From the NCBI GenBank assembly GCA_043228905.1, contig JBHGNT010000009.1, positions 4,340,001 through 4,404,000 of the forward strand: a stretch of DNA of 64,000 bases. Direction: 5' to 3'. The DNA is from Azolla caroliniana. Its lineage: Eukaryota > Plantae > Polypodiophyta. Position numbers and translations under genes: made by a program. This document shows positions 6,391 to 57,557 of the stretch, piece by piece; within the stretch, counting starts at the first letter, position 1, and every line of letters starts with the position of its first letter. The notes under the pieces were generated by a model that was not told the DNA's origin, ran no database searches, and worked only from the letters and a program-made list of their open reading frames with translations.

Positions 6391-9104
6391 GTCCCTACAT
6401 TGAACTTGAAATAGAGTATACTTGAAAAATTCACACATGTAAGTCAAGGAAGAATGATGACAATGATAAAAGGCCATTTGTTGATCCAACATTCCCTAGA
6501 AGACTGCACCCCACGTGAAAATAGCCAACTTATACCTACGAGAAGCCTAAGAATTCAAAACCTAAAAACTTTTAGCGGCAACATATTCCCAGAATACATG
6601 ATGCAATGTCTTAGATGCAAACCCACACATAACACATGACCGATCACGCACTGATCCCCTCAACAATTCACCTACTGATAATGCGTAATGAATCATCAAC
6701 CATCGAAAATGCAATATCTTGTTCATACATTTAATTGACCAAAACTGTTTCCAAAACATCACCATATGAGAAGATGAGACATTACCTTCTTCCCAATACT
6801 TTTTTCTAGTAGGTACCGGCTCGGTCTGGCTCAACAAAAAGTTGAATCTACCAAATGCCACCGAATATGTGAAAAAAGGAAGGAACTTAGTTGAAGTGTC
6901 AGACATGGACAATTTCCAACCATAATCCGATGGATCCCACTACAAATCGGCAAGTGGCCTAGAGTGTAAAACCCAAATATGAGATGAGTAGTTAGCAATT
7001 AAAGGACTAGAATCGATAAATATTTTTTTATCTAATCTAGCAATTACTCGCACTGGCAATTGCTTTGTTACAGACATAATTGGAAACTCCTCCTCCACTA
7101 GTATCAACCTACCATTGTCCAGAACTTCATAAAAATAGAGGCCGCCATTTTGATGATATAAATGAACTCCTATAAGTATATTGAGTGTCAAAAACATACC
7201 GTACCAACTCTGAAAATGATCGAACTACAAAGTTGGCATTGTGACTTGATACACCATGGACAATTGAGAGAACATTATCTTTGCCCCTCTTAAATTAGAC
7301 AACATATTCCACTGAAGTCTGCAAAAACTTTATCCTATCCACAACCATACGGTGTCATGAGGATTTTTGATCATGGTGAGAAAACCAAGTGGGATGGATA
7401 AAATGGGGATGTGCAACATTGCACATGCACTTGGAAGATTAGGAAAAGAAACAAATGTAAAAAAGGAAGGGTAAATGTAAGGTGTTAAAAGTGCACTACG
7501 AAATTTCATAAAGTGTAAATGTGATGTGCACTTATGTGCACATGCACATGTAGACTAAAGGGAGAGTACATGAAGTATGGGTGTAGTGAGTAGTGGGCAT
7601 AGTGTGTGTGTGAGGAGAGGGAGTTAAGGCTCCATCAATCTCTCCTCCAAAAATAAAGGCCAAATATTCCCCCATTGAAAGAAGGGGGGGTTGACCTCTT
7701 CTTTATGTAATGTGCCTCACCCCTTACTACTATAAAAGGGAGAGAGGGGCCATTTTTGAGGGGCTTCCACTTTTGGGTTTCTTTGGGTTGCCATTAGGGT
7801 TTTCGAATTTTGGGTTTTACAATCTCGTTTTAGGGGTTTCATTCGTCTTCTTCTTCGTCTTCTTCTTTTCCGCTATCCGGTTAGGGTTTCATCTAGAGGG
7901 TTTACATTCGGCCTACACGACCACGGTTGTAATTGGTGTGGTGCTTTCCATAATGTATCTTGTCTTGCTTAGATCTTATTATCTTGAATCTTAATCACTC
8001 GAATCTTAATCTTTCTCTTCCTTCTCGATTGAACTCCCAAGCTTCTCTCCCTCCTCTTGCTCCCTAGTCCAAGACCCTCGCGGTTCCGTCCTATCTGACA
8101 TGCACGCGTGGATTTTCGCTGTCGTGAAGAAAACCGGCCTTAGGAGGAATCGACAAATAAGACGTTGTCGGGAAGTTTCGTGCATGTGTGTTACTTGGGC
8201 GGGACCACGAGGGTCTTGGACTAGGGAGTACTCAAGGGATAGAGAAGACTCGAGGTTTGCTTTACGACAATACTACTTCCCGACCCCTTCACGAGCAAGG
8301 GCTCGTTGCCCTTTGTTTTGTGAGGCCGATGGCTTTCGTTGATCACGACTCGTCGACCTTTCGAGATCACCGCACGAGCCAAGTGATCAAACGGGTACAA
8401 GCAAGATGAGCACACAAGATGAACACACAAGGGGACGATAACACAAACATGAATGCCCGTACATCTTTATGAGGAGGAGAGGTGCATGGGCACGCCCGAA
8501 TGCTCCCTCGTCACAAGCGTCGAACGTACGAGGAAGACACAAAACACACGCACAAATCACGGTAATCCGCGAGTACGTGTAGGATCCGAGGTAGGACCAT
8601 AGGGGTCTTGGACTAGGGAGTAGAGGAGAAGGAATAAGACACAAAATGGAAGCTTAGCTCAAGAGGAGAAGAGGAAGAATAACACATAAACATAGAATAG
8701 AATAGATGGAGGCAAGATACACCCACAAGACAAGAAAATCAACATGCTATATTAAGAGTTCACAAAAGATTACAACCAAGGCTGCATATGCCGCACCAAA
8801 AACGACTACAAGAAAATCCTCACCGGATGAGCAAGTAAAGAAGTATAGTAAAACCCTAAAGGAAACCCAAGAAGAAAACCCTAGAAGAAACCCTAAAACC
8901 GAATAGAACCCCTCGACCTAAGTGGTATACCTCTCTCACTCAAAATAGGCAACCCCAAATGAGCTCCCTCGACCTCCTTTTGTAGGAAAAAAGGAAGGGG
9001 GGTCGCCAATTTTGTCTTTAATGCAAAAAGGAATAAAATTCATTAAATCACATTGCATTATAAGACTAGATTTGAACCGTGCACCTCTAGCTAGAAGTCA
9101 ATGT

Positions 9105-9811
9105 TTTTAGGAAACAGGTCCCTCCGGATGGGAAGTGAGAAGAACCGGATGTGGAGTACCCGACAATGGAAGACCCGGTGAGAACTGGATGACGAGTATC
9201 CGGCAACGGAAGACCCGATGAGAACTGGATGTGGAGTACCCGACAACGGAAGACCCGGTGAGAACCGGATGACGAGTACCCAGCAAGGAAGACCCGGTGA
9301 GAACCGGATGTTGCAGGCCCGGTGAGAACCTCTCATATTGGATGGAAGGGACATATATGTAAATATGTTCCAGAGAGCCCATTGGGGCTATATTTGTAAA
9401 TAGCCCGAAAGTCATATTAGTATAAATATGACCTAGGGCAAACTTAATAGTATGATGTAGAGCTGGTTGTATTATTATCGTTGTTGCGATAATTCAGAGC
9501 GAAACTGTGTACAGAGAAGAGAGAGAGAGAAGAAGAGGTTGTTGCCTCTGTTGTAACCGCCTAGTGGCGAAGCGAGGGAGTAAGAGGTCGTTGCCTCTGT
9601 GCCCCATTGTTGTAATCTTGATATAGTGATATTTTGTAGTTTGAGGGCTGCCGTGGTTTTTCCTAGATTTGGGTTTTCCACGTTAACATCCTGTGCACTT
9701 TCTTCTTTACTGTTTCGTGTGTAGATACATCTTACCAGATCCCTGATTTCTGTGCTTGATCCGACGTCTCGGTTGTGGCTGAGCATAGAAAAGGAAACCA
9801 TATTCCTTACA
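9105..9811 (+). mobile_element. Solo LTR E of a different family, inserted in LTR B
   Basis: 5-bp TSD AATGT (9100-9104, 9812-9816); right end ATTCCTTACA, left end degenerate TTTTAGGAA. Shares its 3' sequence with the element at 63220-63572. Confidence 0.7.
9140..9329. repeat. 40-bp tandem repeat (about 4.5 copies) inside LTR E
   Basis: Units AGAACYGGATG..GAGTAYCC..CAA.GGAAGACCCG.TG start at 9141, 9181, 9221 and 9261, alternating GTGG and GACG variants. Confidence 0.9.
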
Positions 9812-12800
9812 AATGTGACTATCCACTAGCCCATTAACTCTCTTATATATAATGTATGATTCTATCTCTATAAATTCTTAGCTTGTCCCCCCTCTACTTT
9901 TTACCTCTCCTCTCTCTTACTTTTTACATGAGCTCACTACTCATTCTACTCTACAAAGTGCACATCACATTTATGCCTCTACGAACTTCGTGGTGCACCT
10001 TTAGCACCTTAGATTATTACCCTTCCCATTACATTTTGTTTACTTATTCTTATTACACAAATTTACAAGTGCATGTGCAATGTTGCATATCCCCATTTTA
10101 TTTGTTCCTCTCGGTTTTCTCACCGTAGCCGGAAATCTTCACGACAACGCATGAACCGGCCCTTATGCGCGGGCACAAGTATTGATAAGATGTACATAAT
10201 TAGGAATAGGTCGGCTGATGTAAATATACTAGGTTGTACACGTTTATTAGCTAGGAAATCGATGCGTATCTCTGTCAGAAGGGACAGAGAATAAAGATGA
10301 TGTATTCAGGATGTGACGGTCCTCCCCGACGGCCTATAAAAGAAAGGGGAAAATGATTGAAATGGTATCACGTTTTGGGAGGACGAAGTGCTGTCGGACT
10401 GGGAACCGAGCACTCTTCTCGTTTTTCCTCGTTGAGCTCTGCAGGTTTTGGTCGGTTGCCTCTGCTCGAGGGAGAAGCCCGTGCGCTTCGGCAAAGGCTC
10501 CACTGTGTGCTCTGTGTGTGTGTGTGGGTGTTTGCACATGGTCGCTCATCGGCTTGCCGGTTGTAATCTCGAAAGCTTTGTATTCGCCTAGTTGTCTTAA
10601 TCGATTCCTTGTTTGTGAGTCCTTTGCGTATTTGTATGTGTGTCTCGACTCATTATTGGTACGAAATCAGACGAGCGTGTGTTACTGTTCATTCTTCGTA
10701 CATTGCCGCAGTAGTCGTTGAGCCGACAAGCACGTGTCGAGGATCGTCCACCCGGTGAGCTCTGCGTACCTATTTGCCAGTAGCCGGTACTTGTCGGCCC
10801 ATTGTTTCACCTTGCTCCTCCCTCTGTTTCGGGTTTTCCTCGGTCCAGGGCCCATGTGGTTCCGCCTGAGTTTCCTACGCGAGAGCATAACAACACGACA
10901 CCGCGACAACGGGCTGGACCACTATCCATTGCAGCCCAAGATAACCTAGGGCGTAGACCCAAAACACATGCAACTTCATCAGTAAATAAAGGATTCCATA
11001 TCCACGATTGCCGCATGAATTGATGACATCTTTTCGATGGCAAGAAAACAAGTGCTTGACGAGACTTTCCCATGCCCGAAAAATTCTATTAAAGAAACGT
11101 AACGATCCAACATTGGACTTAGGCAACGGAAAATCTAAATTAAAGAACCATCTAAGACTATCATTCCATTGACCACCTACTGATGGCTTGACCTTATGTA
11201 AGTGTCGAATCCATAGCTTTTTCCATAACTCCTCTCCATGACCTATCAATAAACTCCTAACAACATGTTTGGCACGTAAGGCATTACTTTGCATAAAGGG
11301 ATCAATCAAACCTAGACCTCCTTTCTGTTTAGACTGTATAAGAACCGACCAAGCTACCTTTGCTACAAAATTGTTTGAAATAGTGTTCCACCAAATAAAA
11401 TTACGTACTAGACGTTGGACTTTAAGCATTATTGACCTAGAAAACAACCATGTAGATGTTATATACCAAATCGAGGACAAAAGCACCGAATTAGCTACAA
11501 CTATATGTCATGCTAAGGATAGCTTCTTCGTATGCTAGTATATTAGCTTATTCCTTAACCTTAACAACAAGGGCGCAATCATATCCTCTGCATTTAATCC
11601 CAAACCCACTTTATAGCCTAAATACCTAACGGATTGACCTTGAGGTATCCACATGAATCCCGAGGTAGGTACATTAAATGGTAGATCTCCAGAAGCGACC
11701 CAAAAACCTGATGATTTATCCCAATTTATCAATGCACTTGATGCATCTGAGAAATCATCCACAACTTTTTGCACCTGTAACAAATTAAATTGTGAGGCCT
11801 GAACATGTAAAGTTGTATCATCAACAAACTCACTATCCACGCCAACATTTGCCATTCGTAGTGCTAAACCTTTAATACATATTGAGAATGTAAATGTACG
11901 AAAAATGCTTCAGATACTAGTAAAAACAAAAAAGGAGCAAATGGACATCCCTACCACACTAATCTTGAAATAGAAAACCGCCTACCAATATCCCGTGCAA
12001 ATAAAAGAGAACTATGTGCGTTACGATATAATGTTGATACTCCTCGTATCTATATGTTTGGAAAACCCATCCTAAGCAGTGTTCTCTCCATAAAATCCCA
12101 GTCCACTTTGTCGTAAGCTTTTTCAAAATCAAGAAATAACACTGCCAGATCTTGCTTATGCACTTCAACAAAGCCCACCATTTCCCAAAAAAGAATGATA
12201 TTATCAAAAATACTTCATTCTTGCAGAAAACAAGTATGGGAATCATGAATCAACTCCAAAAGATAAGGTTGTAATTGTCTAGCTATCATTTTTGCTAATA
12301 TCTTATAAATAACATTCAATAAGGTAATTGGTCTCCAATGACGAAGCTCTTCTAACTGTCCACTTGTTTTAGGAATTATATAGATTAAACCCCCATTCCA
12401 TTCTTGTGGCATATTTCCCGAGTCTAAAATTTGTTGATAAGCTTTGGTTAGTCCATCACCTATCAAATCCCAATACTGTATATACCACTGGACTTCCAAC
12501 CCATCCTATCTAGGAGAAACATCCTTTGCAAGGGCTTTTATCGCTTTAAGAACATCTTGAGGACTTAATGGTTGCAAAAGACATTTTGAAAGTTGTACAA
12601 ACACCCTATTTGATGCATCTGACTAGAATCAATGGTATAAGAGCCATCAAGACATTTTAACCGAGAAATCCTAGCAGTTGACTTATGATGATTATGCATT
12701 GCAAAGAACAGTTTATTGACTTTATCTCCTGACTTTGCCCATGTAGACGATATATTATGATAATTAAAATCAACAGAAACCTTTTCTAATTGCAATATCT

Positions 12801-15643
12801 GATTCCCTAATTGTATCACTTGGGAACTTATATAACTCGAATATGATCTTCTCTCTTGCAGATGTTGCAAGGACCTCAATCCCCTACAAAGTCTTCCTAT
12901 TTTAGTAAAATACGCATAAAATACTTGTTTAGCCTTATAGTGGAAAAATTGTTGTGTTTCACTAATAGCCTTCTGAACACTAGATAGTGCGTAATCATAA
13001 GAATAGTCATATTTATTCCAAATATTATACATAATAGAAGCACAACCTTGGCTAAGAAACACATGATTCAAAATTCTAAACCTAGAATTTTTATAATGCT
13101 CTTCCAAGACTATAACTAAACGAAGTGGTGCATGATCAGAAAAGGAAAATGAAGGTAGGATTCAAATGGAGCCTCCTTTGTCCCATAAAACTTATGAGAA
13201 TAAAATCTATCTAACCTAGAAAAAATGGTATGTGACTCTCTTCTATCTGATCTTGAGTAAACTAAGGAATCATGTATCCTTACAAAAGAAGACACGTGCC
13301 ACAAGTCCATTAAACCCAAAGAAAAAATCAAAAGTTCCCATTCATATAATTCTGAACCAGATAATGTCTATGATGTGCCTCCTAACCTATCACACACATC
13401 CTCCAACATATTAAAGTCACATGCAATTGCCCAATGGTCAACAACCGGTAACTGTGACATTATGCTCTTCCATAATATCGTTCTGTCGCTTACTTGATTC
13501 GGTGCATAGATATTCAACAAACCTCACTTATTCAAACCTATTTGAAGAATTACATAATGAACTCTACCACAAGTCAATACTCCGTAGTGTAAGAAAGAAG
13601 ACCACCAAATATCATTTATTGCAATGCAAAGTCTTGCTTTCAAACTATTATCACTAGTTGCAGGCACCCAAAACCGTCTCCACTGGCCTGGCAACAAGTT
13701 TCTATATTTCTGAATCCTTTGTTCATTTAAGTGATGCTCTTGAATAAGAACATCAATCCTACCTATCAAATACTTCCTTAGCTGACGATGGAAAACACAC
13801 CTTACTTTACAACAATGTCTGCCTCCTAAGCCCCATACATTCCATGAAATAATATTTAATCTATCAATCATTCATGTTTTGCCCTCCTACTCTCCTTTCG
13901 GTAAGTGCAACGTCTCTACCCTTCCTTCCATCCTTTGAGGCCTGTAATTGTCTCTTATTTGACCAAATGTCTTTCCCAGTCAACTTATGTGCACGCACTG
14001 ACATATGTTTATCTACTATAGAAACCCTATCGGAAGACCTAGCAGTTGTAGTAAAAGAAATTATATTCCCACAATCCATGTCAACATGTGCAAGGTCTAC
14101 CTTGAACACTTCATTTTTTTAAAACTTGGTTAAAGCTAGGTACCTATCAACTTGTTGTACTTGATCTAAAATAAGTTGTTTATCCTTATTAAATTGATTA
14201 TTAACCTTAGAAATAGGTTCTACAGTTTGTACCTTCAAAAGTATGTCTTGCGAATTATGTTCCACTCGATGTTCCTTTGTGAAAACTAGGAGGGAAAAAC
14301 CGTCATCCACTTTACTAATCCCCACATCCTTTTCCACTTCCTGCAAAGAGTGATAAGGGTTAGCTTCAAGTAATAACACTGGATTAACCATCGTACTAGT
14401 TGGTTTCAAAACATGTTTAAATTTGTAGAAACTGTAGACCAACCATCATTATTAACATCTGGTCGAGTAGGTGGATGACTTTCAACATTTGGATGTTGCT
14501 TCTAACAATCTTGACCTAAATGATCAAACTATCGGCACACAAAACATTGATCAGGGCAAACCTTGATAATACACCTTTTGCACAACCGGTGGTTTATTTA
14601 TAACAAAATTAGGTAAATAAATAGTTTCCGGCAAACGAATAGATCTTGGTGCGATGAACCAAACAATTGGGACCCCACCCACTCTATCTGTCCCATAAAC
14701 CTATCAATCACGCGTAGTAATGACTTTACCTAACAAAGCCCTAATGCAAGGCCGTAACAACCATACTAGACTCTTGATCCTGCAATATTTCATCTACCGT
14801 AACATTATGCTACCATTTATGAAAAGAAACCCACACACCTTCCACGCCCGCCTCCTTAATCACTAATAGCCTGGCGATGGACTCCTCACCTGCAAATTCC
14901 ACATGATAACATCCTCGAGACATGAACTGAATGTCGCGGATGTTATCCGCTTCCTCCAAGAAAGCAGCGTACGAAGTATGACAGAGTTTCGATCTATTCA
15001 GTTGTGAACCCTGTCCCTGCGCTACCAAGGAGAAAGCCTCCAACCGTTGTACCTTGCCCAAGATTGTAGCTTTATCCTCCTTCGACAACACAAGGTCGAC
15101 TGTCTCATCACACAGATGAGGCGAAAGTTGGGGGGGGGGGTGCACTAGACTCCCCTGCTCGCGTATATGGTCCAACTGTAGATGAAGTATGAGGCTGGTC
15201 TGCAGTCAACCTCCTGCTTGTACTAGAAGCACCTCTCGTTGTGGTCATGCTGTTTGCACCACACGCAACTTGTTCGTTTTCTGTTTTCTGCATCGTTTCT
15301 CATGAAGGAAGGGATTTGCCACTTGATTATACAAGATCTAGATCACATACATGCATGTGCTTTCCCCAAACTATTCATATCCCTTAGCCAACAATAACTT
15401 TCTATATTCAATGTTCACACATGATATCGGAGAACCCATGGCCACTACATGCCCTTGTTAGGTACATGCCTTTGTGCTTCATGAAGATATTAACCCTCAA
15501 TTACATATATGAAGAATCTTGACCATCTAGCCTTTCAAATAAAGGCAGATTCTTATATTTTTATAATGACCCCGAAATATTGTGAAATTACGAAAATATG
15601 CCCCTTCTGGTCCTAACCAGGAAAGAAGAGCAGAGCGATCTCC

Positions 15644-18600
15644 ATGTCGACGACAGGGGATCAAATGGAGGGGGATTCCATAGTTTCCTCAGATGTGGTA
15701 AACGTTGCAGAGTATGAAGCTTTGGCTGCCAAAAAGCTCCCAAAAATGGCCTATGACTTTTACTCTGCAGGAGCTGAAGATGAATGGACCCTTCGATACA
15801 ACAAAATTGCTTTTTCTACCATCAGGTTAGTGTTATTATTGGTCCCCCTTCTCTTATGATCATTCTTCATATGTTTTAATGGTGTTCTTTCTGATGGGAC
15901 ATAGAGCTATAGAATCGATGTCAATGCATATAATGTTATGCTGCTCTTTTCTGATGAATCCATAAATCCCTAGAGTGTTGTATAAATGTGATGATCTTGT
16001 ATATTGTCGTATTCTGGTCGAATCATAAACAACTACCGAGACTCCAAAGCTTTATATTCATTAACTAACCTCAAAACGAAGGAAAACTAAAACTTAACAC
16101 ATCATATACAAATATTATTCATTGAAAGTAAAAAGAGAAGAATCATAAAAAGTAAAATAACTTGCACTCTAGTCTGTATAAGCGTCAGAAAAAACAATGA
16201 TTACATGGGCTCAAATCAGAGGAAACTAGAACTTCACAATTAATATCATCACATACATGCAAGACACAGGGCTATGAACTCATTGCAAACGACAACATCA
16301 CATAAACTCAAACTTAGAAACATAAGAGAGGAAAAGGTGTTACATACAATCCTACACATTTTTAGGAGTAAAATGCACAAGGCCTTGTTACTACCTATGC
16401 GAGGTTGCATTTACTCGACTTTCTTGTGGATATGCATGCAATCCTTGGTACCCAAGAGCCACGAACGAAATTGTGGTTGTTTGATACACTTGTAACACCA
16501 ACTCGTCTCTATGGAGTAGAAATTTGGGGATCAAACCTTCATAGGCACAATTGAAAAGATTTGGAGAGACCTTTTGTCTCGATGATTGTCAACATGATGA
16601 AGAACAAAGCATTGGTGCCCTATGATAGAATCTAGCTGGAGATGAGAGCATCCCCCATAGTGATCAAGGCATTATTCTGATCAGTAACTGGTATCCAATG
16701 GATTTGGGTGCTCCATAAGTAAAAGTACTCAAGACTATCATTCATGTCATCAAAACAGGTTGGTGAACATGGAGATGGTCTTAGTATCCTGAAATGCAAG
16801 AATGCTTCTAGTCACATGACATAATTATAAACGTATTATCTCTATTCCAATGTAGCCTGGATTTTCCATATGTAAACACGACCAAAGGGGAAAATAATAG
16901 AGTGATCTGAATTGACATAATTTAATTGGATATGCAAGAAGATGTATAAGCCCCACAATATCTCTTGGTAGGAAGATGGCTCACTACAAGACACTCTTTT
17001 TACACATCTGGCATGATGCATTTATTGTCATACCACCTTACATGGATACACATGTATCTTATGAACTTTGTAATATGAGAGGGCAACTCGGGACCTCTTC
17101 ACATCAGTTGGAAATTGAGACAAGAAAATACACACAAATCTATGGAAGATGGATCTACCAATTGTGTCATTGGGGGGTGGGATCAAAAGAACATTATGTT
17201 TTGCCATTGTGTTTTTTATGAAATGAGAGGGAGATAATGACGCCTCTTCAAACAAGGCTTTGATTCACGGTGTAAGGTAATGGATATGAAGCTCAATGGT
17301 GCTTGGGATTGTTCTTGCTTGAACACAACAGATAGAGAGAGAAGTTTTTGAAGGACGACAATACAACCACAACTCATCAACAAAGAACCATCACAATTTT
17401 CTTTAGCACCATCACCCCTTCTCATGCTACAAGTCAATCAAGAATTGCACAAGTGGGATCTCGACCATGACACTTAAAAAGGGTTATAATAGATCAGGCG
17501 ATAGCAAAGTGTTTGCAAGGGGCTAGAACAGAGTGAAGTTGTTGAAGGAAAACAATACAACCCACAACAACTCATCAACAAAGAACCATCACAACTGTCC
17601 GTAGCTACATCACCCCTTTTCATGCTACAAGTCAATCACGGGCTGCACAAGTAGGGCCTTGACCATGACACTAAAAAAGGTTTATAATAGATTAGGCAAT
17701 AGAAAAGTGTCATGAATGTAAGTCACAAGCATTTGGACCATGGGCCCACCACCCTTGTCTTTGACAAATGAAGGCCATTATTATTGATTCTCTTGCTTTG
17801 AAGATCTCTCCATACTAGAGCAGCCCATGCAAGAGATTTTTTTGAAGACAAAAGTTTCACTCTATCTAACTTCAGACAATACTCTATGTGCAGTTAAATT
17901 TATTTTTGTGTGCTCTTCTAGACAACATTCCATTTGGCCTCTTAAAAGATGTTAGTATCTTTGATCTTTCTTTCTATTTCATTTTGATGAATATAGACCC
18001 CTAGAGTCTTGGTAGTCAATGGTCATGATGATGTTAGATCGTCTAGGTTCCTTTGTTTTCAACACATGCAATGTTATATCTTTGACATTGTTAAGTTTGA
18101 GTATATTTACTATCGTTTTCTTTGATGAATATAGTAACCTAGAGTCGTGGTAGATGGGTCTGAGATTATTAGTTTAACATATTCTATTTAAATTTGTATG
18201 GAATATTTTCCTTATGTTGTTAACATTGAGCCCATATACGCTGTTTTATGATGTTATGTTGAGATTATATAATATTGTTTTTGTGAGGAATATATAGATC
18301 TCTATAATAGATTAGGTGTGATAACGCTGATAACTTGAGTTATGTAATGTTTTTTTTTCGGATGAATAGAGAGCCCTAGAGCTCTTGTAAATATGATGAT
18401 GTTATTGTTAGATATAGCCAATGATCACCCTTGAATTGTCGCTTTATCCCCACATGTATTCTTAGAGTGTGAAAACACCCCAAATGAAGAGTAGCTATTC
18501 TGTAACCTGACCATATGGGTTGATGAGGTGTCAATGTGGGAAATTGTAGATGATTTGACAGAATATATTTAGGAAAGAGGGAAGTAGGGTAACAAGATTG

Positions 18601-21600: not shown

Positions 21601-24600
21601 TTATGAGCATTGATACTCATTTGTCTCTCCTTCCATTTTTCATTTTCTCTTGAATCTTACGAAGTGTACTCTATAAACTACACCATAGAAGAATATGCAA
21701 GTAGGATATCATCAAAATGTATGACTGATAGAATCAGTCATCAAGATCCAGACATTCCTTTCAATCATTCTGGGTTAGAGCAATATATCCAATGTTTATA
21801 TGAGAAAACTGGAACTGCAATGTGAATCAGGGAATGGTCAACTGTCATATATCCAATATTTATATGAGAAAACTGGAACTGCTATGTGACTCAGGGACGA
21901 GAGTATATCCAATGTTTCTATGATTTTTTGCTCATAAAATCAGGAAATCCTTTAACAATGACCTGGCAGAGGATATATAATGTGCTGATATGATAGACAT
22001 CTTCAATGCAATGGAAATAATGATACTGTTCTGTCTTCAGTGGAGTACGTTGTCCCTTGGGCTAACATCAGACTTGTCAATTGGACTGTTTTCTAGGCAC
22101 CTAACGTTGTAATGGAAATGCTATGCTAGAAGATGCATCATATGGTATGATATCTCTGGAGTACTATTGACAAAACCACATGCTCAGAACTATGATACCT
22201 TAAGTGGGTTGATAAGAAACAGCACTAAACCACGTGATGTCAATGGGAGCAATCACCAAATGCAAATTTCTTGCAAGAAGGTATAATGAGAACCAGATAT
22301 TTGGTAATAGCCATGTTAACCCTATTGAAAAAGGAGCAACAGAGAGTGGAGAACATTCATCATTCTAATGTCTTAAGATCTCATGATCTCATGAATTATG
22401 TTAAAAGTAGTAGCAAACTTAGATCAGCCTATGAATTTTGCTTTTGATTGTATCTATGGCTTATTTATTATTTTATTCTTGCATGTTATTTTTCCTCTTG
22501 GGTTTGGTTTCTGTTTGTTCCTTTGTTTTGACATTCAATCCAGGCCTTCATCATGGACAAGTTTACCTTCTAGAAAGAAAGAAAGAAATATTAACATCTT
22601 TTAAGAGGCCAAAATGGCCTATAAGAACAAACAAGAGATTACATCTTAAGTGTTGTCTCGTCTTTGAGAACAACAAATCAAAATAAAATAAATATTACTC
22701 CGTAAATATAAAAGTAAATAAGATAAAAAGAGATGAGGGAATCAGGCACTTGGAATCTCTTTATGAGCTAATCATACACTAGTCTTTTGGGCGTTGATGA
22801 TGCGAGTAGTGATGGCATAACTTTTGACAATGTTATGCATGTCAAATTGACAAACTTTTAAAAGCTGTCACTCTAAGTGGGAAGTTCGTTTTTAGGGTTT
22901 GTTAATTTTGAAGACCAAACAAGAGATTACATCTTAAGTGTTGTCTTGTCTTTGAGAACAACAAATCAAAATAAAATAAATATTACTCCGTAAATATAAA
23001 AGTAAATAAAATAAAAAGAGACGAGGGAAACTGGCACTTGGAGTCTCTTTATGAGCTAATCATACACTAGTCTTGGGCGTTGATGATGCAAGTAGGGATT
23101 GTGAGAAAAACTGTTAATAGCAGCAGCGGAAGAGTTAGAACAAAATAGACACAGCCAAGTTGTGAGAAGGCTGTTAGACAACAGTAGAAAAAATGGTTGC
23201 AAAGAGTAGAGACACAGCCAAAGAGTTGTGCTTGTTTCTAAGTAGCAGCAGAAAATAATCTCCTTACAAAAGAGGCTGGTATAAGCCTATTTATACAAAA
23301 TTGGGAATGGTTGTTTGGTAGTTAAGAGACTCTTGTACTACCAAACAGGTACAATAAACTAGGAATTAAAAAGGGAATATCTTGGAAAAAGTGGAAGAGA
23401 CAAAAGGCATTTAAAGCATTGCAGATTCTAGAGAGAGAAGGCATTTAAAGAGTTGCAGATTCTAGAGAGAAAAGAATCTGGGAAGAGAGAGAATGTAGTA
23501 CAGAGATAATAAAGATGAAAGAGTGTAGGTCTGGAGTTGCCACTCCTCTCAGCTCCAGAACGGCGGTCCACCATTGAGTCGATCGAGGAGCTGATCAATG
23601 GCTTGCCTTGGAAGCAGCTTAGTAAATAAATCAAGCACATTTTCTTGAGTAGGGCAATATGCCAATTTGATGACTTGTGATTTTACTAATTCACGAACAA
23701 AATGGTACACTTCGATGTGTTTTGTTCTACCATGAAATGCTGAGCTATGTGCCAAGGCACGGGCACTTTGGCTGTCGGTGAAAACTGCAATAGGAGAGTC
23801 TTGCAAAACACGAATGTGAGAAAACAATTGCATAACCATAGCAACTCACAGCAAGTATCCAAGTAGGCGCGGTATTCAGCTTCCGTCGATGAAGTAGAAA
23901 CTGAGTTTTGCTTCTTTGATTTCCAAGAAATCAAGCCTGAACCTAACATAAAACAATAGCCAGATGTGGACCTTCTAGAATCAATATCACCTGCCCAATC
24001 AGAATACCTTCTAGCCAACAAGCTCAATGCCGCCTCTAAAAGACTGACCATAGTCGAGTGTGTTGGCCAAATACTGAAGAACTCGAATAGCTGCTTGCCA
24101 ATGACTTTGTCTTGGAGCAGTTGAGAATTGGCTGAGAATACTCACGCTATAGGACAAATCAGGCCTGGTATAAGTTAAGTGAAGAAGGGACCCAATTAAC
24201 CTTCTATATTTCGTGATATCCTCAAATATGGGAGAATTGTCTTCACGAGATAGCTTTGAGTTTGGATCCATTGGACAGGAGAGTGGCGTGCAATTTGACA
24301 TGCTATAGGTCTCAAGGAGCTGCCTGAGATACCTATGTTGGCTGAGAAAGATACCACCACGTGATTGATAGACCTCCATACCTATGAAATAATGGAGAAG
24401 TCCTAGATCAATCATTTCAAAGATTGTTTTGACGTCAGCGCGGACCTCCTCGATTTTAGATGCAAGGGACCCTGTAATTAGAAGGTCGTCAACATATAAA
24501 ATGATCAAGCAAAGCAAATTATCTTGGGAAAAAACATAGAGATTGCTGTCAACATTACAGTTTTGAAACCCAAGAGAGAGAAAGAAGCTATCAATTTTGT

Positions 24601-27600
24601 CATGCCAAGCTTTGGGAGCTTGCTTTAAGCCATACAAGGCTTTGTGTAACCTGTAGACCATGTTTTTCTGCTCTAAAATCTTGAAACCTGGAGGCTGTTC
24701 AACATAAACCTCCTCTTTCAAGTCACCGTTAAGGAAGGCTGACTTGACATCCATTTGAAAAATGGGCCATTTGTTGTGAGCAGCAAGTGCAAGCGCACAT
24801 TGGATAGAGGTGTACCTTGCTGTTGGAGCAAAAGTTTCCTCGTAATCCACTCCTTCGACTTGTGAGTAGCCTTTTGCCACTAAACGTGCATTGTGCTTAT
24901 CCAAAGTACCATCAACATGGTATTTGATCTTGAAAATCCATTTCAGTCCAATGACTTGTCGATGTGGAGGCCATGGGATCAGCTCCCATGTATGATTCTG
25001 CTCAATGGAATCTAGTTCAACTTCCATTGCTGCTTTCCACTTTGGAAAAACAAGGGCCTCTTTCGCTGTTGTGGGTTCTTTTGATTGCACAACAGTGCAC
25101 AATAAGGCAAAGTTGCATGAGTGAAGAGGCCGTTGTGACTTACGTGTTCGAGAACCAGATGTATATACTTATGAAGTTCAGCATCGGAGAGATGAGAATC
25201 ACGAATGGTGGTTGAAGCCACTTGGGAAGTGGTGGAAGCTGGTTTGTAGAGGGATGGGAAACAAGTGGAGTTGAGGGAGAGGATTGAATTGTTGGCGAAG
25301 TTAGAGATTGAGTAGGAGGAGATGGGGGGCTTGAAGATGAGACATCTTCGTCAAAAATAGGAGAATCCGGAGGAGCTGGGATTTCAACCATGAACTCAAG
25401 TGAAATCCTAGAATCATCCAGCTGAGACTCCACAAAATGAACATCCCTAGAGATGACTAGGGACTTTGACTCTAAATCCCATAACCTGTATGCTTTAGAT
25501 TGTGTGCTGTAACCAAGAAATTTGCATTTCTTGGTTTTGGACTCAAATTTCGTCCTTCTATGATCTGAAATGTGAACATAAGCATCACAACCAAAGACTT
25601 TAAAATGAGATACTGAGGGCGTTACACTTGTAAATGCTTCTGCAGACGTCATTCCAGCAACTGCTTTTGTTGGGCAGCAGTTGATGATGTAGACTGCTGT
25701 GTTGACAACTTCACCCCAAAACGAGAGAGGAAGATCAGATTGAGATAGCATTGTACGAGCCATCTCTTGGACTGTCCGGTTCTTCCTTTCCACGACTCCA
25801 TTTTGTTGAGGAGTATTGGGTGTAGAAAATTGGCGAGCAATGCCTCGTTGAGAGCAGAAATGGTGGAAAGCTTGGGAGATAAACTCTCCACCATTGTCCG
25901 ACCTTATCTTTCGAACTTTCTTCGATGTCTCGTTCTCCACGAGAGCTACCCATTCTTGAAATTTTGTGAAGGCTTGCGATTTTTCTACAAGAAAATAAAC
26001 CCAAACCTTGCGGGAGAAATCATCAATGATGAGCATGAAGTAGCGTGCACCACCAAGAGTAGTGGTTTTCATGGGACCACAAAGATCCATGTGCACTAAC
26101 TCCAAGATAGATGTTGCACTGTGAGTGGTTTCATGAGGGAAAGGCTCTCGATGTTGCTTGCCATGAAGACAAGCAACACATGGGGTATTGCGAGTTTTGA
26201 AAATAGGAAGACCCTCAACTAGTTGGGAAGAGGAGAGCTTTTGAAGAGAATCATAGTTGAGATGACCAAACCTAGCATGCCACAACGTGGGATCTTCTTG
26301 TGCCACCAACGCATGAGAGCCTTGAAAAAGATGAAGAAGATGAGATTTGGACTTTTCCAAGGGGCTATGGGAACTTTTTAGGCGGTATAAACCCCCTTCT
26401 TGTGTGCCACTAGCTACAATTTGTAGGTTGTTGGAGTCAATGACTTCCAAAACTGAGCTATTAAAGAAGGCTCCATAACCTTGCTTGAAAGAGCCTTGTG
26501 CCACCAACGCATGAGAGCCTTGAAAAAGATGAAGAAGATGAGATTTGGACTTTTCCAAGGGGCTATGGGAACTTTTTAGGCAGTATAAACCCCCTTCTTG
26601 TGTGCCACTAGCTACAATTTGTAGGTTGTTGGTGTCAATGACTTCCAAAACTGAGCTATTAAAGAAGGATCCATAACCTTGCTTAGTGATTTGGTAGACT
26701 GAAAGTAGGTTGGCAGAGGTGCAAGGCACATGTAACACATCTTGAAGAATGACAGGTTCTTCATTTGAAGAATTGTTAAGAAACACATTACCCACACATG
26801 AAGCCTCAATGCTTGAGGCAGCTCCTATGGATATTTGGGAGGATCTAGGTTTCACATCATGCAAAATGGATTTGTCATAGGTCATGTGTGAAGTAGCACC
26901 ACTATCTACTAACCACTCATCAATGGTTGAGGTAGTTGGTCCAGCCAAATGTGAAGTATGTTCCTCAATGCCAAGGAAAACTGTTTCTTTGGCTGAGTGG
27001 GGGGACGAGTTGGATTTCGGTGTAGCTTGATTTTCGGTAGAAGAAGTGTTCTTAGCATTGTGCCTTTTCTTTTTCCGACAATCCAGCTGAATGTGACCTT
27101 TGTAGCCACAATAATGACAAGTGAGCTCCTTGTAAGCTAGGTTGTTTGGTGGTCTTGGATTGGGTTTGTTGTAGGAGTTACCATTTTGCTTACACTTGCC
27201 TTTACTTGTCGCATGTAGAAGCGTCTCATTGGAAGTTTGAGCACTTTTCTTCCTTGTTGCCCTATCTTGTAGCATACCAAGAAATGTATTCATATCAGAT
27301 GTGTTGGGAAGAAGATAAATTGTGTCACAAAATGCTGAGAATGACTCAGGCAACTTTATCATTAGACGATGCACAAACTCAACTTCAGTTGACTTGCTTC
27401 CCAAAGAAACTAGTTCCTTTTTGGAGAGTAACAAATTGCGTTATTTGATCCATGATGTTGGGAGTGTCATGAATCTTGAGATTAGCTAGTTGGTTCTCAA
27501 TAGCTATCATTTGAGCATGATTAGCTCGATGTTACCTCTTTTTGATGGATGTCCATAGTTCATTGGCTGTTTCTTCATCTGTATCTTGAAATTGACGAGT

Positions 27601-30600
27601 GATGCTAGGTTTAATATTAAACATGAGGAAAGCATGGGCACGAAAATCCTTATCTAGCCACGCATCAATCTCAGCGTTAGATGAGCCAACAACTGATTTG
27701 GTTGAAGAGGATGAAGTTATTGGTGGTTTCTTGTCACTACCATTGACTACATTCCATAAACGATGGTATTGTAGCAAGGTCTTTATTTGTAGCTCCCAAT
27801 CCAAGTAATTGTTCCCATCCAAGATGGACTCTTTGGGGAGTTGGGGAATGGTTGATGAAACAATCGTGGCATGTGAGGCCATGATATCCTCCTCTTGAGC
27901 TACAACTGGATAATTTACAGCAGTTGTAAGTAGATGCTCAGGGTCTTTCTACTTCTCCCTGGATGCTAGGTGAGGCTCAGATGAGGGGAAAAGAAAAAAA
28001 AAGAACCTCCTTTGTAGGTTGGGAGGGTGGCTGCTAAGAGAACCTCCTCTATAGGGTTGGGAGGGAGGGATAAAAGAAGAGAGGTCTGTGTGCTCTTTGG
28101 CAAAAAAAAATTCAGGCTGAGGATATGGAGACCTCACTACTCTGATACAATGTGAGAAAAACTGTTAATAGCAGCAGCGGAAGAGTTAGAACAAAATAGA
28201 CACAGCCAAGCTGGGACAACAGTAGAAAAAATGGTTGCAAAGAGTAGAGACACAGCCAAAGAGTTGTGCTTGTTTCTAAGTAGCAGCAGAAAATAATCTC
28301 CTTACAAAAGAGGCTGGTATAAGCCTATTTATTCAAAATTGGGAATGGTTGTTTGGTAGTTAAGAGACTCTTGTACTACCAAACAGGTACAATAAACTAG
28401 GAATAAAAAAAGGGAATATCTTGGAAAAAGTGGAAGAGACAAAAGGCATTTAAAGCATTGCAGATTCTAGAGAGAGAAGGCATTTAAAGAGTTGCAAATT
28501 CTAGAGAGAAAAGAATCTGGGAAGAGAGAGAATGTAGTACAAAGATAATAAAGATGAAAGAGAGTGCAGGTCTGGAGCTGCCATCCTCCAACAGGGATGG
28601 CATAGCTTTTGACAATTTTATGCATGTGAAATTGACAAACTTTTAAAAGCTGTCACTCTAAGTGGGAAGTTCGTTTTTAGGGTTTGTTAATTTTTAATTG
28701 ACAATTGTATTTTAGGATTTAGCCTGTTCCTTTGTTCCTTTGTGACTTTTGACACCCCCTACCTCCTTCCCCTTTTTTCTCCTCTCCCATTAATCTGGAA
28801 ATATGAAGGTATCTTGATTTCAGTGTATGAAAGAATTAAAATTATATATTATTTAAAATTATCAGTTGCATGATGTTCCGGATCAAATTTGAACTGTTCC
28901 ATGATCAAGATCTGAACTTTGATTCATTACTAGCATGATAAGCAGATCAAGTAAAGTGCCGATAGTTATGCCATTACCATATACAGTCATTCCTTTTTGG
29001 AGATATGATTGCAGTGTTTCTTGATTCAATTTTCTATACAAGTATTGTCTTTTTACAGGTATTCAAGGACAGGAAAATAGCAGAAAATCTGGTTCATCGA
29101 GCTGAGGCAGCTGGGTATAAAGCAATTGTTTTAACAGGAGATACTCCCCGACTTGGACGTAGAGAATCAGATATAAGAAACAGGTTGTGTATTTTATTCA
29201 AATCTTTACTAGCTTCAGGCGATGTCTTCAAAATGCATGATGATGGGTTCTCTCACAGATTTATACTGCCATCCCATGTGACAATGAAAAATGTCGATGG
29301 ACTGATTAATGTACAAACACAAATGGATAAGGTATTTTAATTACTACTGATGCACAGGCCTATAAGTTTTGTCTGACCACTTGTAACTCGACTCTCATTC
29401 AAGAACTCAATTGACAGTGTACTTCATCAACGAAAAAAGATCTTAAAGCATACATTTCCTAAAACTCTACAAAAGTCTAGAAAAGATTTAAAAGATTTTT
29501 TGGCGTTTATATGTTGAACTTTAGAAAACATGTCTTGGTACATTTACTTCAATTACAGCTACTGATGCACAGGCCTAGAAGTTGTCTAACCACTTGTAAC
29601 TCGACTCTCATTGAAGAACTCAATTGTCAATGTACTTTATCCACTAAAAAAGATCTGAAAACATACATTTCCTAAACTTTACAAAAGTCTAGGATAGATT
29701 TGAAATATTGTTTTTTGGTGTTTGTATGTTGAACCTTAGGAAAGATGTCTTGGTACATGTATCTCTGTAGTATTAGGAAGATATGTCACTTTTCCCCATC
29801 AATCTGTGAAGGTAATCTTTACACAAAGACATGTCATTAAAGGATACATTGGTTTCTCCATGTCTTGTGAGTATCCAATCCATGATATCTTGCACATATG
29901 CTTTGAGCGTAAAATTGGAAAATTTCTTAGATTGAGTTATCTTTTTCTCATTCAATAAATGAGAGAGTACTACATAGCATTATTAAACTTGAAGAAGATT
30001 AACGTTTTTAGATTTTTCTAAGTAGCAAATTTAGTGTTTTTTCAGTCCAAAGGATCTGGTTTGGAAGCATACGCTGCCAATACAATGGACAGGTCTTTAA
30101 GTTGGAAGGTAAACCTTTTTGTATTTACTTTTTTACTTAGTTATGTTTATTTTGGTTTGCTGATTGCAAAGATGAAACTACGTTTTAAGATGTGATCTCT
30201 TGATTTGTTTTATAAGACATTTTAGCCTCTTAAAAGATGTTAATATATCTTTCTTCTTCTATCCCAAGTGGAACTCGACCTATGATAGAGATCTTTCGGA
30301 GACAAAAGCTACAATATACCTAACGTGAGAATCTTGCATGTGCCAAAAACCAGATTCTCTTGTCTCTTCTCTTTTCATCTTATTTACTTTTATATTTACT
30401 GTGTAATATTTACTTTATTTTGATTTGTTCTCAAAGACAAGAAAACATTTAAGATGTAATCTCTTATTCGGTCTTATAGGCCATTTTGGCCTCTTAAAAG
30501 ACGTTAATATATCTTTCTTTCATTCTTTCTTTCTCTCTCCCAAGTGGGACTCTTTCCGGTTGGGTTGTTGACATAAGGAAATGGTTTAGAAGATGGGGTG

Positions 30601-33600
30601 TGGATAATCTTTTAGTGCTTTTGGGTGATGCTATGCATTATGTAATGATTGAGGAAAGGATGGTCGAATCATTAAGGATGAAATGGGAAGATGCTAAGAG
30701 GACAAAGCGAGAATACTACATTGCAAATGTCAACCCTGAATATATCCAACCTTATCTCATTACCAATATGAGTAGTAATGCTCGTAGAGCCCTTGCACTA
30801 CTTCGCACTTGATCTCACAAGTTAGGTATTGAAGTTGCATCATGGTATCAAAATGTAACGAATTTGAAGACATGTAAAGTATGCAATGAAGGCATGGTAG
30901 AGGATGAATGTCACTTGCTCTTCACATGCTCGACATATAGTGCAATTCGTTCAAGATATGCTGACATACTAAGAGGAAGTGATATTTTAAATGCCATACT
31001 TAAGACACCAACTAGAAGGTTGAGCTCATATGTGTATGCTTTATTCACACATAGAGACTTTGTGCTTCAATGTATGAATACCCCTTCTTAAGGAGACACA
31101 TATCAAGAACACATGCATACTCTGGTTCCATAGGTCAAAACTGGCCTCTTTATGGACGATAAAAATTCTAATTTCCATTCTGGATCAACCTATGCTAGAG
31201 ATCTTTCAAAGACAAAAGCTACAATATATCTAACTTGAGAATCTCACATGGGCTGAAAACCAGATTCCCTCGTCTCTTGTTACCTTATTTACTTTTATAT
31301 TTACGGAGTGATATTTATTTTATTTTGATTTATTGTTCTCAAAGACAAGACAACACTTAAGATGTAATCTCTTGTTTGGTCTTATAGGCCATTTTGGCCT
31401 CTTAAATGACGTTAATATATCTTCTTCTTTTTTCTTTCTTTCTCTCTCTCTCTCTCTCTCTCAAGGGGTTTGGAATGGCTGCCGTTTAGCTGGACAGGGA
31501 GGCTTTCGGAAGGGGTTGACAATTTTGGATCACAGATTGACCCTCTGAGCCCTTATCGAGGAGGACAGAACCCACAATAAGAGGATTTATTGCTGTTTTG
31601 TGGATTTCTGGAAAGTCTTTGACACTGTGCCATGTGCTCGGCTTATGCAATGGCTAGAAGCCCTTGGTGTTCCTACAGATTTGCAATGGGGAATCTATGC
31701 ACTCTATGAATCCTTGTCAAGAAAAGTGCGGTCTTTCAAGGGTTTGTTAGAGGTAGTGGCTAGCACAATTGGAGTGAAGCAAGGATGCCCACTATCACTC
31801 ACTTCTATATAGATGAGATATCACATTACATAGAGAGATTCAGGAATTATAGTGAGTGATGGGAGGAAATCGTGGAGGGGAACTCTGGCAGAAAATGTTT
31901 CTAATAAGAGATGATGTAACGTTGACCTTCCCTCTCCTTGGAGCTATAAAAGGAAGGGACAGCGTCTGTTTCGGGGATCGATCATTTGGAGAGGGGAAGG
32001 TGCTGTCGGATTGGGAAACAAAGTGTTGTAGGCTTTCTATTCTGCTGATTCGGTTAGGCGGTGCGAGGCCTTTGCTCACGTAGGCAGCCTGTGTGCTCCC
32101 GACCAAAGGCTCACGAGTCCATGTGTGTGCGTCTGGAGAGCTCAAAACTCTACTAATAGGACAGAGGTCTAAACTTGTATTCTTTCTCTGTCTTTAATTG
32201 ATTGTTGGGTATTGTTGTATCTGGGTGCTCTCTTTGTGGTCCCTGCTTTGGTCTCTCTGTGTCGTGTCAAAATCCGTATCTCGTTTCTGGTGTCCAGGGT
32301 GGTGTCGTTCTTCCCTCCTCTTTTCTGCCCGTGCTGTCTTGCGTCTGAGAGCCCGTGTGCTCAACATCCGGAATCCGGTGACAGAGCCGGATCGGATATG
32401 GTTCTGCAAGCTGTGCGCTTAGTATCCGACCTCGGGAACCAGGCCAGATAGGCCGCTGCAAGCTTAGCAGCCGATTATCCTTAAGCTCCTTGGTCCGAGA
32501 CCCCAGTGGTCCTGCCCAAGCCGAGTCCGCAGGCCGTGGATTTCCACGACAATGCTCCTACACATACTTAGGAGAAACATTTACAGGGCCTAGGTTCTCC
32601 TTACGGGAGGATGCTTGTGCCTGACTTTCTTGTAGATATGCAGCCCTTGGTGCTCTCAAGAGACAATGTGCACATTTGCAGTTCCAAGAGCCACAAACTA
32701 AGCTGTGGTTATTTAATACACTTGTCACACCAACTCTTCTATATGGAGTATGGATGTGGGGACCGAGTCTTAACAGGCAAATCATTGGAAAGATTTAGAG
32801 AGACCTTTAGTGTCAATGATTGCCCGCATGATAAGGAGCAAAGCATCGGTGCCCCATGATATAATCCGGGTAGAGATGGGAGCAACACCTATATTCACCG
32901 ATGGATTGTTCCGATCAGTTACATGTCTCCAACATCTTTGGGAGCTCCCTAAACGAAGGTATCCAAGGTTGGCACTTATGCCATCAATACAACTAGCTGA
33001 AAATGGTGACATTCATTGTTGGTATTCATTGTTGGCATAAGTATAATGTACAACCCCCGTTCCAATATAGCTTGGACTGTCTCCATCTAAATATGACCAA
33101 AGTGGAAAAGAATAGAGTGATCTGAACTGATATTATTAACTTGGAAAACAAGATAACATGGATCAGCCCCAAAATATCACTTGGTACAAAGATGACCCAC
33201 TACAAGACACGTTCTACACACATCAGAGGATGGATTCATCATTAGGCCACTCTATATGGACATACATCTATCCTATGCACTACGCAGTGAGATAGGGCAG
33301 CTTTGAACTTCATCACATCAGTTAGAGATTGAGGTATGTAGATATATATGAATACCTCTAGAAGAAAGAATTTGCCAATTGTGTCATGAAGGAGTGGAAT
33401 CCGAAGAGCACTATGTTTGTCACTGTAGTGTCTTTTATGATATTAGAGGGAGATAGCATTGCCTCTTTAAACAATGCTTTGGCTTGTTGCACAAGGTAAT
33501 GGAATATGAGGACCAACAATGCCTTTCTTGCTAGACCTCAAAAGACATAGGGAAAAGTTGTTGAAAGACAAAAATACAGCCACACAAGCTCATCCACAAA

Positions 33601-57296: not shown

Positions 57297-57557
57297 TTTG
57301 AAAATTCGTCTGCGGTGCTGCTTGGCAAGAAGCAGTGGAGAATAACTCGAGAGCAAATTCGTGCTTTGGAAGCCTCCTATTATGCGAGATGTTGAATGCC
57401 AAAATATAGCTGCATACCATTACAGAGTTCAACTCAGAACAAACAAGTCAAAACAAGGATAAAAGGGAGAAAATCCCAACGCAGTCCCAGAGTTTCCATT
57501 TATTTCCCCAAAGATCCTTGAGTTTCTATGTTATTTTCCGCAAACCAGAGTATTTCA

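What the first reader, a model, noticed from the sequence alone, without database searches (positions are those of the whole stretch)
7349..10912. LTR family with apparent CpG-centred 4-bp target sites (NCGN)
Seen in sequence: three related solo LTRs with TGTCR..YGACA ends have 4-bp TSDs ACGG/ACGG, TCGC/CCGC and ACGT/ACGC, each with CG at positions 2-3, and both mismatches are C/T transitions. A fourth copy ending at 32551 is followed by ATGC where the intact LINE (near 39842) has ACGC, so the target was again NCGN, since deaminated. The other LTR elements here have ordinary 5-bp TSDs without CG (GGGAT, AATGT, ATTAA). Established: most plant LTR retrotransposons make 5-bp TSDs with weak sequence preference. 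Inference: this family's integrase targets CpG, possibly methylated CpG, which in AT-rich DNA would steer it into other transposons and into its own CpG-rich LTR ends. The sample is four sites, and two lie in CpG-rich LTR ends, which inflates the chance rate.
Basis: partly seen in the sequence, partly recalled or inferred. Interest (0 to 1): 0.8.

Follow-up and report, generated by a model that had tools for sequence, protein, structure and literature searches.

The report
Fern retrotransposons that insert at CpG
A group of jumping genes in this fern genome inserts almost always at CG dinucleotides and duplicates four bases (most often ACGT); it is likely the fern branch of the moss 'Phygy' lineage, whose NCGN preference is already published, and any role of DNA methylation remains untested.

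Summary
The window has three nested solo LTRs with 4-bp TSDs ACGG/ACGG, TCGC/CCGC and ACGT/ACGC, inside an old L1. Of 2,389 non-internal 5' ends of family B plus its abundant sister, 1,954 (82%) have CG at TSD positions 2-3 and 92% have a YR step; background CG is 3.5%. All 27 full-length copies with a matching TSD are CG-centred and 4 bp long. A control family has 5-bp TSDs, with CG in 1 of 18. ACGT is used six times more than expected; TCGA is avoided.

The elements are about 7-kb Ty3/gypsy with tRNA-Trp PBS, DUF4100 gag, no chromodomain, no aRH and liverwort homologues. This matches the Phygy lineage, published in 2019 with 4-bp NCGN TSDs and tRNA-Trp priming. No labelled Phygy protein was available for a direct comparison.

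Methyl-CpG reading is untested. Insertion sites look like randomly chosen CpGs, with no significant extra pull into repeats. Additions here: a fern host, the ACGT-biased consensus (like animal Ginger1 transposons) and an invariant acidic residue at the integrase's target-contact position. Two look-ups found no earlier scan note on this.

The parts
7349..7352 (+). Left TSD of A (ACGG)
   Evidence: Sequence
7353..8119 (+). Solo LTR A, main body. Family likely non-autonomous: tRNA-Trp PBS 2 nt after the LTR and the shared PPT, but no gag/pol next to the LTR in 4 of 4 internal stretches read. Its last 4 bases here (TCGC) are B's left TSD
8120..8165 (+). Solo LTR B, 5' piece; last 4 bases (ACGT) are C's left TSD
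8166..10146 (-). Solo LTR C (TGTCGTG...CGACA on the minus strand), interrupted by an unrelated solo LTR
9105..9811 (+). Unrelated solo LTR with 5-bp TSD AATGT (9100-9104, 9812-9816); its family served as the control
10147..10150 (+). Right TSD of C (ACGC, the state seen in other B copies)
10151..10900 (+). Solo LTR B, main piece. Other copies flank gag-pro and RT-RH-INT, with PBS 4 nt after the LTR
10901..10904 (+). Right TSD of B (CCGC)
10905..10908 (+). Terminal GACA of LTR A, displaced by B
10909..10912 (+). Right TSD of A (ACGG)
6562..15205 (-). Degenerate L1-type LINE that hosts the nest (ORF2-like fragments on both sides of A); limits approximate
   Evidence: Translations and a genomic paralogue at 84% over 2.6 kb; the L1 label rests on my reading of the translations
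31841..32551 (+). LTR D, 5'-truncated, inserted in a LINE; right flank ATGC against ACGC in the intact paralogue at 39842-39845

Best explanation
These are solo LTRs of several related fern Ty3/gypsy families, likely of the Phygy lineage, that insert at CpG with a 4-bp duplication (N-CG-N, favouring ACGT), and their integrase likely selects that short DNA sequence directly rather than a chromatin mark. SHOWN: 4-bp NCGN TSDs; bias to A/C at position 1 and T/G at position 4; tRNA-Trp PBS; PPT; two overlapping ORFs (gag-pro, then RT-RH-INT); no chromodomain; host regions as expected for random CpGs. INFERRED: a PFV-like intasome with a 4-bp stagger kinks the target at the central pyrimidine-purine step, and base contacts narrow YR to CG. 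The best candidate contact is the invariant Glu/Asp three residues after the second catalytic Asp, at the PFV Ala188 / HIV Ser119 position. INFERRED: TG and CA variants in TSDs arise after insertion by deamination of methylated C. The nest in the window follows from these LTRs being CpG-rich islands in CpG-poor DNA. Family A likely moves in trans.
For: Genome-wide: 4,019 5'-end matches, 1,630 preceded by PPT, 1,954 by CGN, 2,196 by YRN, giving 82% CG and 92% YR of 2,389. Background CG 3.45%, TG 7.1%, CA 6.9%, TA 6.3%. Sampled ends of A, B, C, D and the sister family: 154 CG, 17 TG, 13 CA of 201; each family shows it separately. Full-length copies: 31 paired of 60 fetched, 27 with TSDs at most one mismatch apart, 23 exact, none 5 bp; 25 CG/CG and 2 CG/CA, no concordant TG or CA. 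ACGT 49 observed against 8.1 expected, TCGA 0 against 14.9, MCGK 104 of 154 against 26%. Control family: 5-bp TSDs in 12 of 14 pairs, CG at positions 2-3 in 1 of 18. The PBS complement lies at the 3' end of tRNA-Trp(CCA) in 28 of 30 loci scanned. Domains RT, RH, H2C2, rve and DUF4100, with no Chromo or aRH hit at E up to 1. Homologues at about 55-65% in the liverwort Riccia form one clade with the fern copies, apart from other gypsy integrases of this genome. Phygy row: 4 bp 100% NCGN, tRNA-Trp 81%. Closest solved integrase is PFV by sequence and by fold; 4-bp integrases prefer a central YR step and have neutral compact residues at the Ala188 position, whereas 96 of 96 relatives here have E or D.
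Against: No labelled Phygy sequence could be obtained, so lineage membership rests on features and liverwort homologues, not on a tree with the moss reference. Length is 6.6-7.3 kb in 25 of 27 copies, below the published Phygy range of 7.7-10.0 kb. The genome-wide count comes mostly from the sister family of B; A, C and D were tested only on tens of ends. 29 of 60 fetched stretches gave no pair and 4 of 31 pairs had unmatched flanks and were dropped. The last 20 stretches were chosen with the CG list in view; in the first 40, all 17 valid TSDs are also CG-centred. The role of the acidic residue is a prediction from alignment; the folded model (pTM 0.45) holds no DNA. Methylation state of targets was not observed.
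Confidence: 0.8

Rival explanations
1. The integrase reads methylated CpG specifically, giving a chromodomain-free route into silenced DNA.
For: All four window targets are transposon DNA. 23 of 27 full-length copies sit in repeats and 7 of 27 in their own lineage, DNA that is normally CG-methylated in plants (general knowledge). No chromodomain.
Against: Neither excess is significant against random CpGs (p=0.12 and 0.17), and selection against genic insertions predicts the same trend. Flank CpG density equals that of random CpGs (p=0.31). TpG, which mimics 5mCpG on one strand, is not seen as an original target (0 of 27 concordant TG/CA TSDs). No methyl-binding domain was found.
Confidence: 0.12
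2. Only DNA bendability (any central YR step) is selected, and CG dominates because of local composition.
For: 92% of ends are YR; retroviral 4-bp integrases prefer central YR; sites lie in CpG-rich DNA.
Against: TG, CA and TA together make up 20% of background dinucleotides against 3.5% CG, yet only 10% of ends against 82% CG. Full-length TSDs with CA always have CG on the other side (2 of 2). Neighbouring offsets show 2-10% CG.
Confidence: 0.04
3. The elements have Phygy-like targeting but belong to another lineage (TatI, Selgy or an unnamed fern/liverwort clade).
For: TatI also has 4-bp TSDs and tRNA-Trp priming; Selgy has 4-bp TSDs and overlapping ORFs. Size is below the Phygy range. No direct comparison with the moss reference was possible.
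Against: No aRH (required for Tat) in either ORF. PBS is Trp, not Ala as in Selgy. NCGN is reported only for Phygy.
Confidence: 0.12
4. The intasome is also drawn to existing LTR ends, which would explain the tight nest in the window.
For: 53 matches for insertion 4 bp from an LTR end and 55 for a TSD shared by two elements, with 0 for the reversed controls. Three of the first 100 CG-preceded ends abut a YGACA, one of them a confirmed element end. My rough expectation from CpG share is a few to about 15 events.
Against: Only about 6 of 12 and 4 of 7 inspected matches are true LTR ends, so such events are about 1% of insertions. None of 201 sampled flanks was a shared TSD. The expectation depends on an uncertain copy number (7 termini in 400 kb).
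Confidence: 0.2

Closest known systems
Phygy lineage, non-chromovirus Ty3/gypsy of Physcomitrium patens (Neumann et al. 2019, PMC6317226; passages and supplementary file 3 read)
   Same: 4-bp TSD, NCGN preference, tRNA-Trp PBS, no chromodomain, no aRH, coding region filling the internal part.
   Different: Host is a fern (LFY 91-92% to named ferns), not a moss. Elements are shorter (about 7.0 kb against 8.6 kb). The consensus is resolved here to A/C-CG-T/G with ACGT on top. ORF layout (gag-pro overlapping RT-RH-INT) was 'ND' in the paper. A likely non-autonomous partner family is present.
Ginger1 DNA transposons of animals (Bao et al. 2010, PMC2836005; passages read)
   Same: Gypsy-like integrase, TGTNR termini, 4-bp TSDs CCGG (75%) or CCGT/ACGG (24%). 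The ESM Atlas best feature hits for this integrase are GIN1-like clusters at 0.97.
   Different: Ginger1 is cut-and-paste with TIRs and no RT; CCGG dominates there, ACGT here. Kinship of the two integrases was not tested by a tree, and the Atlas scores of other gypsy integrases were nearly as high.
Prototype foamy virus intasome (Serrao et al. 2015, PMC4422553; passages read)
   Same: Closest solved integrase by sequence and fold; 4-bp stagger; central YR step preferred; T disfavoured at the first and A at the last TSD position, as here.
   Different: PFV preference is a weak palindrome. Here CG is near-obligatory, and the Ala188 position carries Glu/Asp in 96 of 96 relatives.
TatI and Selgy lineages of Selaginella (PMC6317226 supplementary file 3)
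   Same: 4-bp TSDs; TatI uses tRNA-Trp; Selgy has overlapping ORFs.
   Different: TatI carries aRH (absent here); Selgy uses tRNA-Ala and is about 5 kb; no NCGN preference is reported for either.

Membership tests
Ty3/gypsy LTR retrotransposon | LTRs with TG...CA, PBS, PPT and domain order PR-RT-RH-INT | tested here: met
   protease only a weak Pfam hit (E=0.008)
Phygy | 4-bp TSD | tested here: met
   23 exact and 4 one-mismatch 4-bp TSDs of 31 pairs; none 5 bp
Phygy | NCGN target preference | tested here: met
   1,954 of 2,389; 27 of 27 valid TSDs
Phygy | tRNA-Trp PBS | tested here: met
   PBS complement ends tRNA-Trp(CCA) genes in 28 of 30 metagenome loci scanned out of 80 returned; the host's own tRNA gene was not fetched
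Phygy | No chromodomain, no aRH | tested here: met
   No such Pfam hit at E up to 1 in both ORFs of one intact copy; the fold model ends with the integrase C-terminal barrel
Phygy | Element length 7.7-10.0 kb (descriptive, moss copies only) | tested here: not met
   25 of 27 copies are 6.6-7.3 kb; the paper calls size relatively insignificant for classification
Phygy | Monophyly with P. patens Phygy in RT/RH/INT trees (the formal definition) | not testable with these tools
   No labelled reference found in supplements or protein searches; clade with Riccia homologues shown; Phygy is reported in a liverwort
Tat (TatI) | Additional archaeal RNase H | tested here: not met
   Single RT-type RNase H only
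Selgy | tRNA-Ala PBS, about 5 kb | tested here: not met
   tRNA-Trp PBS, about 7 kb
Chromovirus | Chromodomain at the integrase C-terminus | tested here: not met
Ginger1 | DNA transposon with TIRs and no RT | tested here: not met
   LTRs, PBS, PPT and RT present
Methyl-CpG-reading integrase | Preference for methylated over unmethylated CpG | not testable with these tools
   No methylome available; indirect tests show no significant signal

The most novel reading that the evidence does not exclude
The Phygy-type integrase reads methylated CpG directly through an acidic target-contact residue, giving a chromodomain-free way of homing into silenced DNA, and this CpG readout is an ancient trait shared with animal Ginger1 transposases.
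Probability: 0.1. Interest if true: 0.75.

Novelty: new member of a known kind. Interest (0 to 1): 0.3.

Why it matters
Sequence-specific integration is rare among plant LTR retrotransposons; the 2019 survey names Phygy as the only exception. This genome offers thousands of sites, young copies with identical LTRs and a candidate specificity residue. That makes it practical to ask how an integrase achieves near-obligate CpG choice and whether methylation matters. It also extends the lineage from bryophytes to a fern. The core phenomenon is already in print, so the finding is a confirmation and extension rather than a discovery.

Tried and rejected
Chance from CpG-rich LTR ends: rejected; 82% CG against 3.5% background and 5% in flanks. 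5-bp TSDs: none in 31 pairs. DNA transposon with TGTCR TIRs: rejected; PBS, PPT and RT are present. Plain YR flexibility: rejected (see rivals). T-as-5mC mimicry: no concordant TG/CA TSD in 27 copies. Extra targeting to repeats or CpG-decayed DNA: not significant. A named Physcomitrium reference was sought without success ('DUF4100' gave 0 papers). The solo-LTR pair table (12 pairs) was noisy and is not relied on. The fold search only confirmed a PFV/Ty3-like integrase. The sequencing-run look-up offered no bisulfite data and no reads were laid. Literature searches for Phygy in ferns (3 papers, two checked by passages, neither reports it; 18 papers, listing), for CpG-targeting LTR integrases and for fern methylomes found no report of this preference in a fern or of its methylation dependence. 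The library lacks most subscription papers, and the data files of PMC8282616 (4 pteridophytes) may already label such elements. Eight earlier scan notes shown for this genome concern a different family with a tRNA site replacing the PPT and do not bear on this.
Full report
Observation. The window holds a three-level nest. Solo LTR A (7353-8119 plus 10905-10908) has TSD ACGG/ACGG and interrupts a degenerate L1-type ORF2 on the minus strand. Solo LTR B (8120-8165 plus 10151-10900) sits 4 bp from A's 3' end with TSD TCGC/CCGC. Solo LTR C (8166-10146, minus strand) sits 46 bp into B with TSD ACGT/ACGC and itself carries an unrelated solo LTR (9105-9811, TSD AATGT). D (31841-32551) is a 5'-truncated LTR in a LINE, followed by ATGC where the paralogue has ACGC. 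A, B, C and D are separate families that share termini, primer site and polypurine tract; only A and C align well, over about 190 bp.

Genome-wide test. The host genome (523 Mb) is a fern by its LEAFY exon: 91-92% identity to named ferns, at most 85% to seed plants and bryophytes. A 20-base pattern for the 5' end of B and its more abundant sister family has 4,019 exact matches. Of these 1,630 follow the PPT and are internal. Of the remaining 2,389, 1,954 (82%) have CG at TSD positions 2-3 and 2,196 (92%) have a YR step. Background in 40 fixed 10-kb stretches is 3.45% CG. In the loci held, 154 of 201 external ends have CG, 17 TG and 13 CA; some of the remainder are degenerate internal ends. Each family shows the pattern: A 7 of 10 and 10 of 16, C 14 of 23 and 7 of 14, D 2 of 4 with CG, most others TG or CA. 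The control family has 5-bp TSDs in 12 of 14 pairs and CG at positions 2-3 in 1 of 18 ends.

Full-length copies. Of 60 stretches fetched around 3' LTRs, 31 gave an LTR pair. Four had unmatched flanks and were dropped; of 27 left, 23 have exact 4-bp TSDs, none has a 5-bp TSD, 25 are CG/CG and 2 are CG/CA. The last 20 stretches were chosen with the CG list in view; the 17 valid TSDs from the first 40 are all CG-centred too. No TSD is TG/TG or CA/CA, so the original target was nearly always CG and the TG/CA forms likely arose later by deamination. The outer positions matter: ACGT 49 observed against 8.1 expected, TCGA 0 against 14.9, and A/C-CG-T/G in 104 of 154 against 26%.

What the elements are. 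Lengths are 6.6-7.3 kb in 25 of 27 copies, LTR identity 92-100%. The PBS is complementary to tRNA-Trp(CCA) (28 of 30 loci scanned). An intact copy has two overlapping ORFs: gag-protease with DUF4100 and a zinc knuckle, then RT, RNase H and integrase, with no chromodomain or aRH hit. B, C and D copies flank homologous gag or pol. Four A-family internal stretches had none next to the LTR, so A is likely non-autonomous. Named homologues are from the liverwort Riccia sorocarpa at about 55-65% identity and form one clade with the fern copies, far from other gypsy integrases of the genome.

Comparison with what is known. Neumann et al. [quoted passage not shown] Jedlicka et al. 2019 (PMC6911290, passages) also report 4-bp TSDs for Phygy and frequent Phygy nesting. 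Phygy is named in a liverwort genome (PMC12885004, passages). I could not obtain a labelled Phygy protein, so the formal phylogenetic test is open; TatI, Selgy and chromoviruses fail on aRH, PBS and chromodomain. Animal Ginger1 DNA transposons have 4-bp CCGG, CCGT or ACGG TSDs (PMC2836005, passages), and the Atlas ranks GIN1-like clusters first for this integrase. That is a lead only. My searches found no report of Phygy or NCGN targeting in a fern, but the library lacks most subscription papers and dataset files.

Mechanism. The closest solved integrase is PFV's, by sequence and fold. Integrases with a 4-bp stagger bend the target at a central YR step, and the residue at PFV Ala188 / HIV Ser119 shapes base choice and is neutral and compact in retroviruses (PMC4422553, passages). 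Here that position is Glu or Asp in 96 of 96 relatives, next to a conserved Arg, and a Gln-His pair is conserved in the C-terminal loop. I infer direct sequence readout of CG on top of bendability. This is a prediction, not a result.

Methylation and steering. Flank CpG density at real sites (0.051, n=179) equals that around random CpGs (0.053; p=0.31). Hosts are own-lineage DNA in 7 of 27 against 45 of 300 random CpGs (p=0.17) and any repeat in 23 of 27 against 208 of 300 (p=0.12). So nesting follows from where CpGs are; methylated DNA is probably an acceptable target, but no preference is shown. Insertions at LTR ends and into older TSDs recur (53 and 55 pattern matches, about half genuine on inspection). 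They are about 1% of insertions and may be enriched a few-fold over my rough expectation, which is not established.

Verdict. Real, strong and genome-wide, but a known property of a known lineage, here seen in a fern with a sharper consensus and a testable candidate residue. Interest 0.3.

Noticed in passing
G000 genome-wide; L293-L312: Some tens of junctions where an element inserted 4 bp from another's LTR end or into an older element's TSD (three copies of one tetramer, e.g. L305, L309). Possibly a few-fold more than CpG share predicts.
   Followed up: partly
L044-L058 (A), L007-L027 (B), L110 and L129 (C): The spacer between LTR end and PBS differs among families sharing the same tRNA-Trp PBS: 2 nt in A, 4 nt in B, D and the sister family, 5 nt in C. 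This bears on how integrase trims the cDNA ends.
   Followed up: no
L048/L044 (G000:C4:5168310-5171190), L313-L316: Family A appears non-autonomous: about 1.3 kb non-coding internal region in one copy, no gag/pol beside the LTR in four others.
   Followed up: partly
L191:3917-7432, residue 924 of P0001: Glu/Asp in 96 of 96 related integrases at the position that is small and neutral in retroviral integrases.
   Followed up: partly
window 23100-28593 (-): Near-intact copia element with 5-bp TSD GGGAT and LTRs about 94-98% identical.
   Followed up: partly
window 51668-56511 (-): Exons of a raffinose synthase / Sip1 gene (Pfam PF05691).
   Followed up: no
window 36821-37270 (+): Weak C-myb C-terminal match (E=0.0003), possibly an exon of a 3R-MYB gene.
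   Followed up: no
window 16326-17891, 30122-34529, 39009-41373: Several copies and 3' fragments of one LINE family; one copy keeps a 433-aa RT frame.
   Followed up: no
window 57405-58427: Tandem array of about 217-bp units at about 98% identity.
   Followed up: no
G000:C1:642298 and G000:C21:596717: Two LEAFY loci in this fern genome.
   Followed up: no
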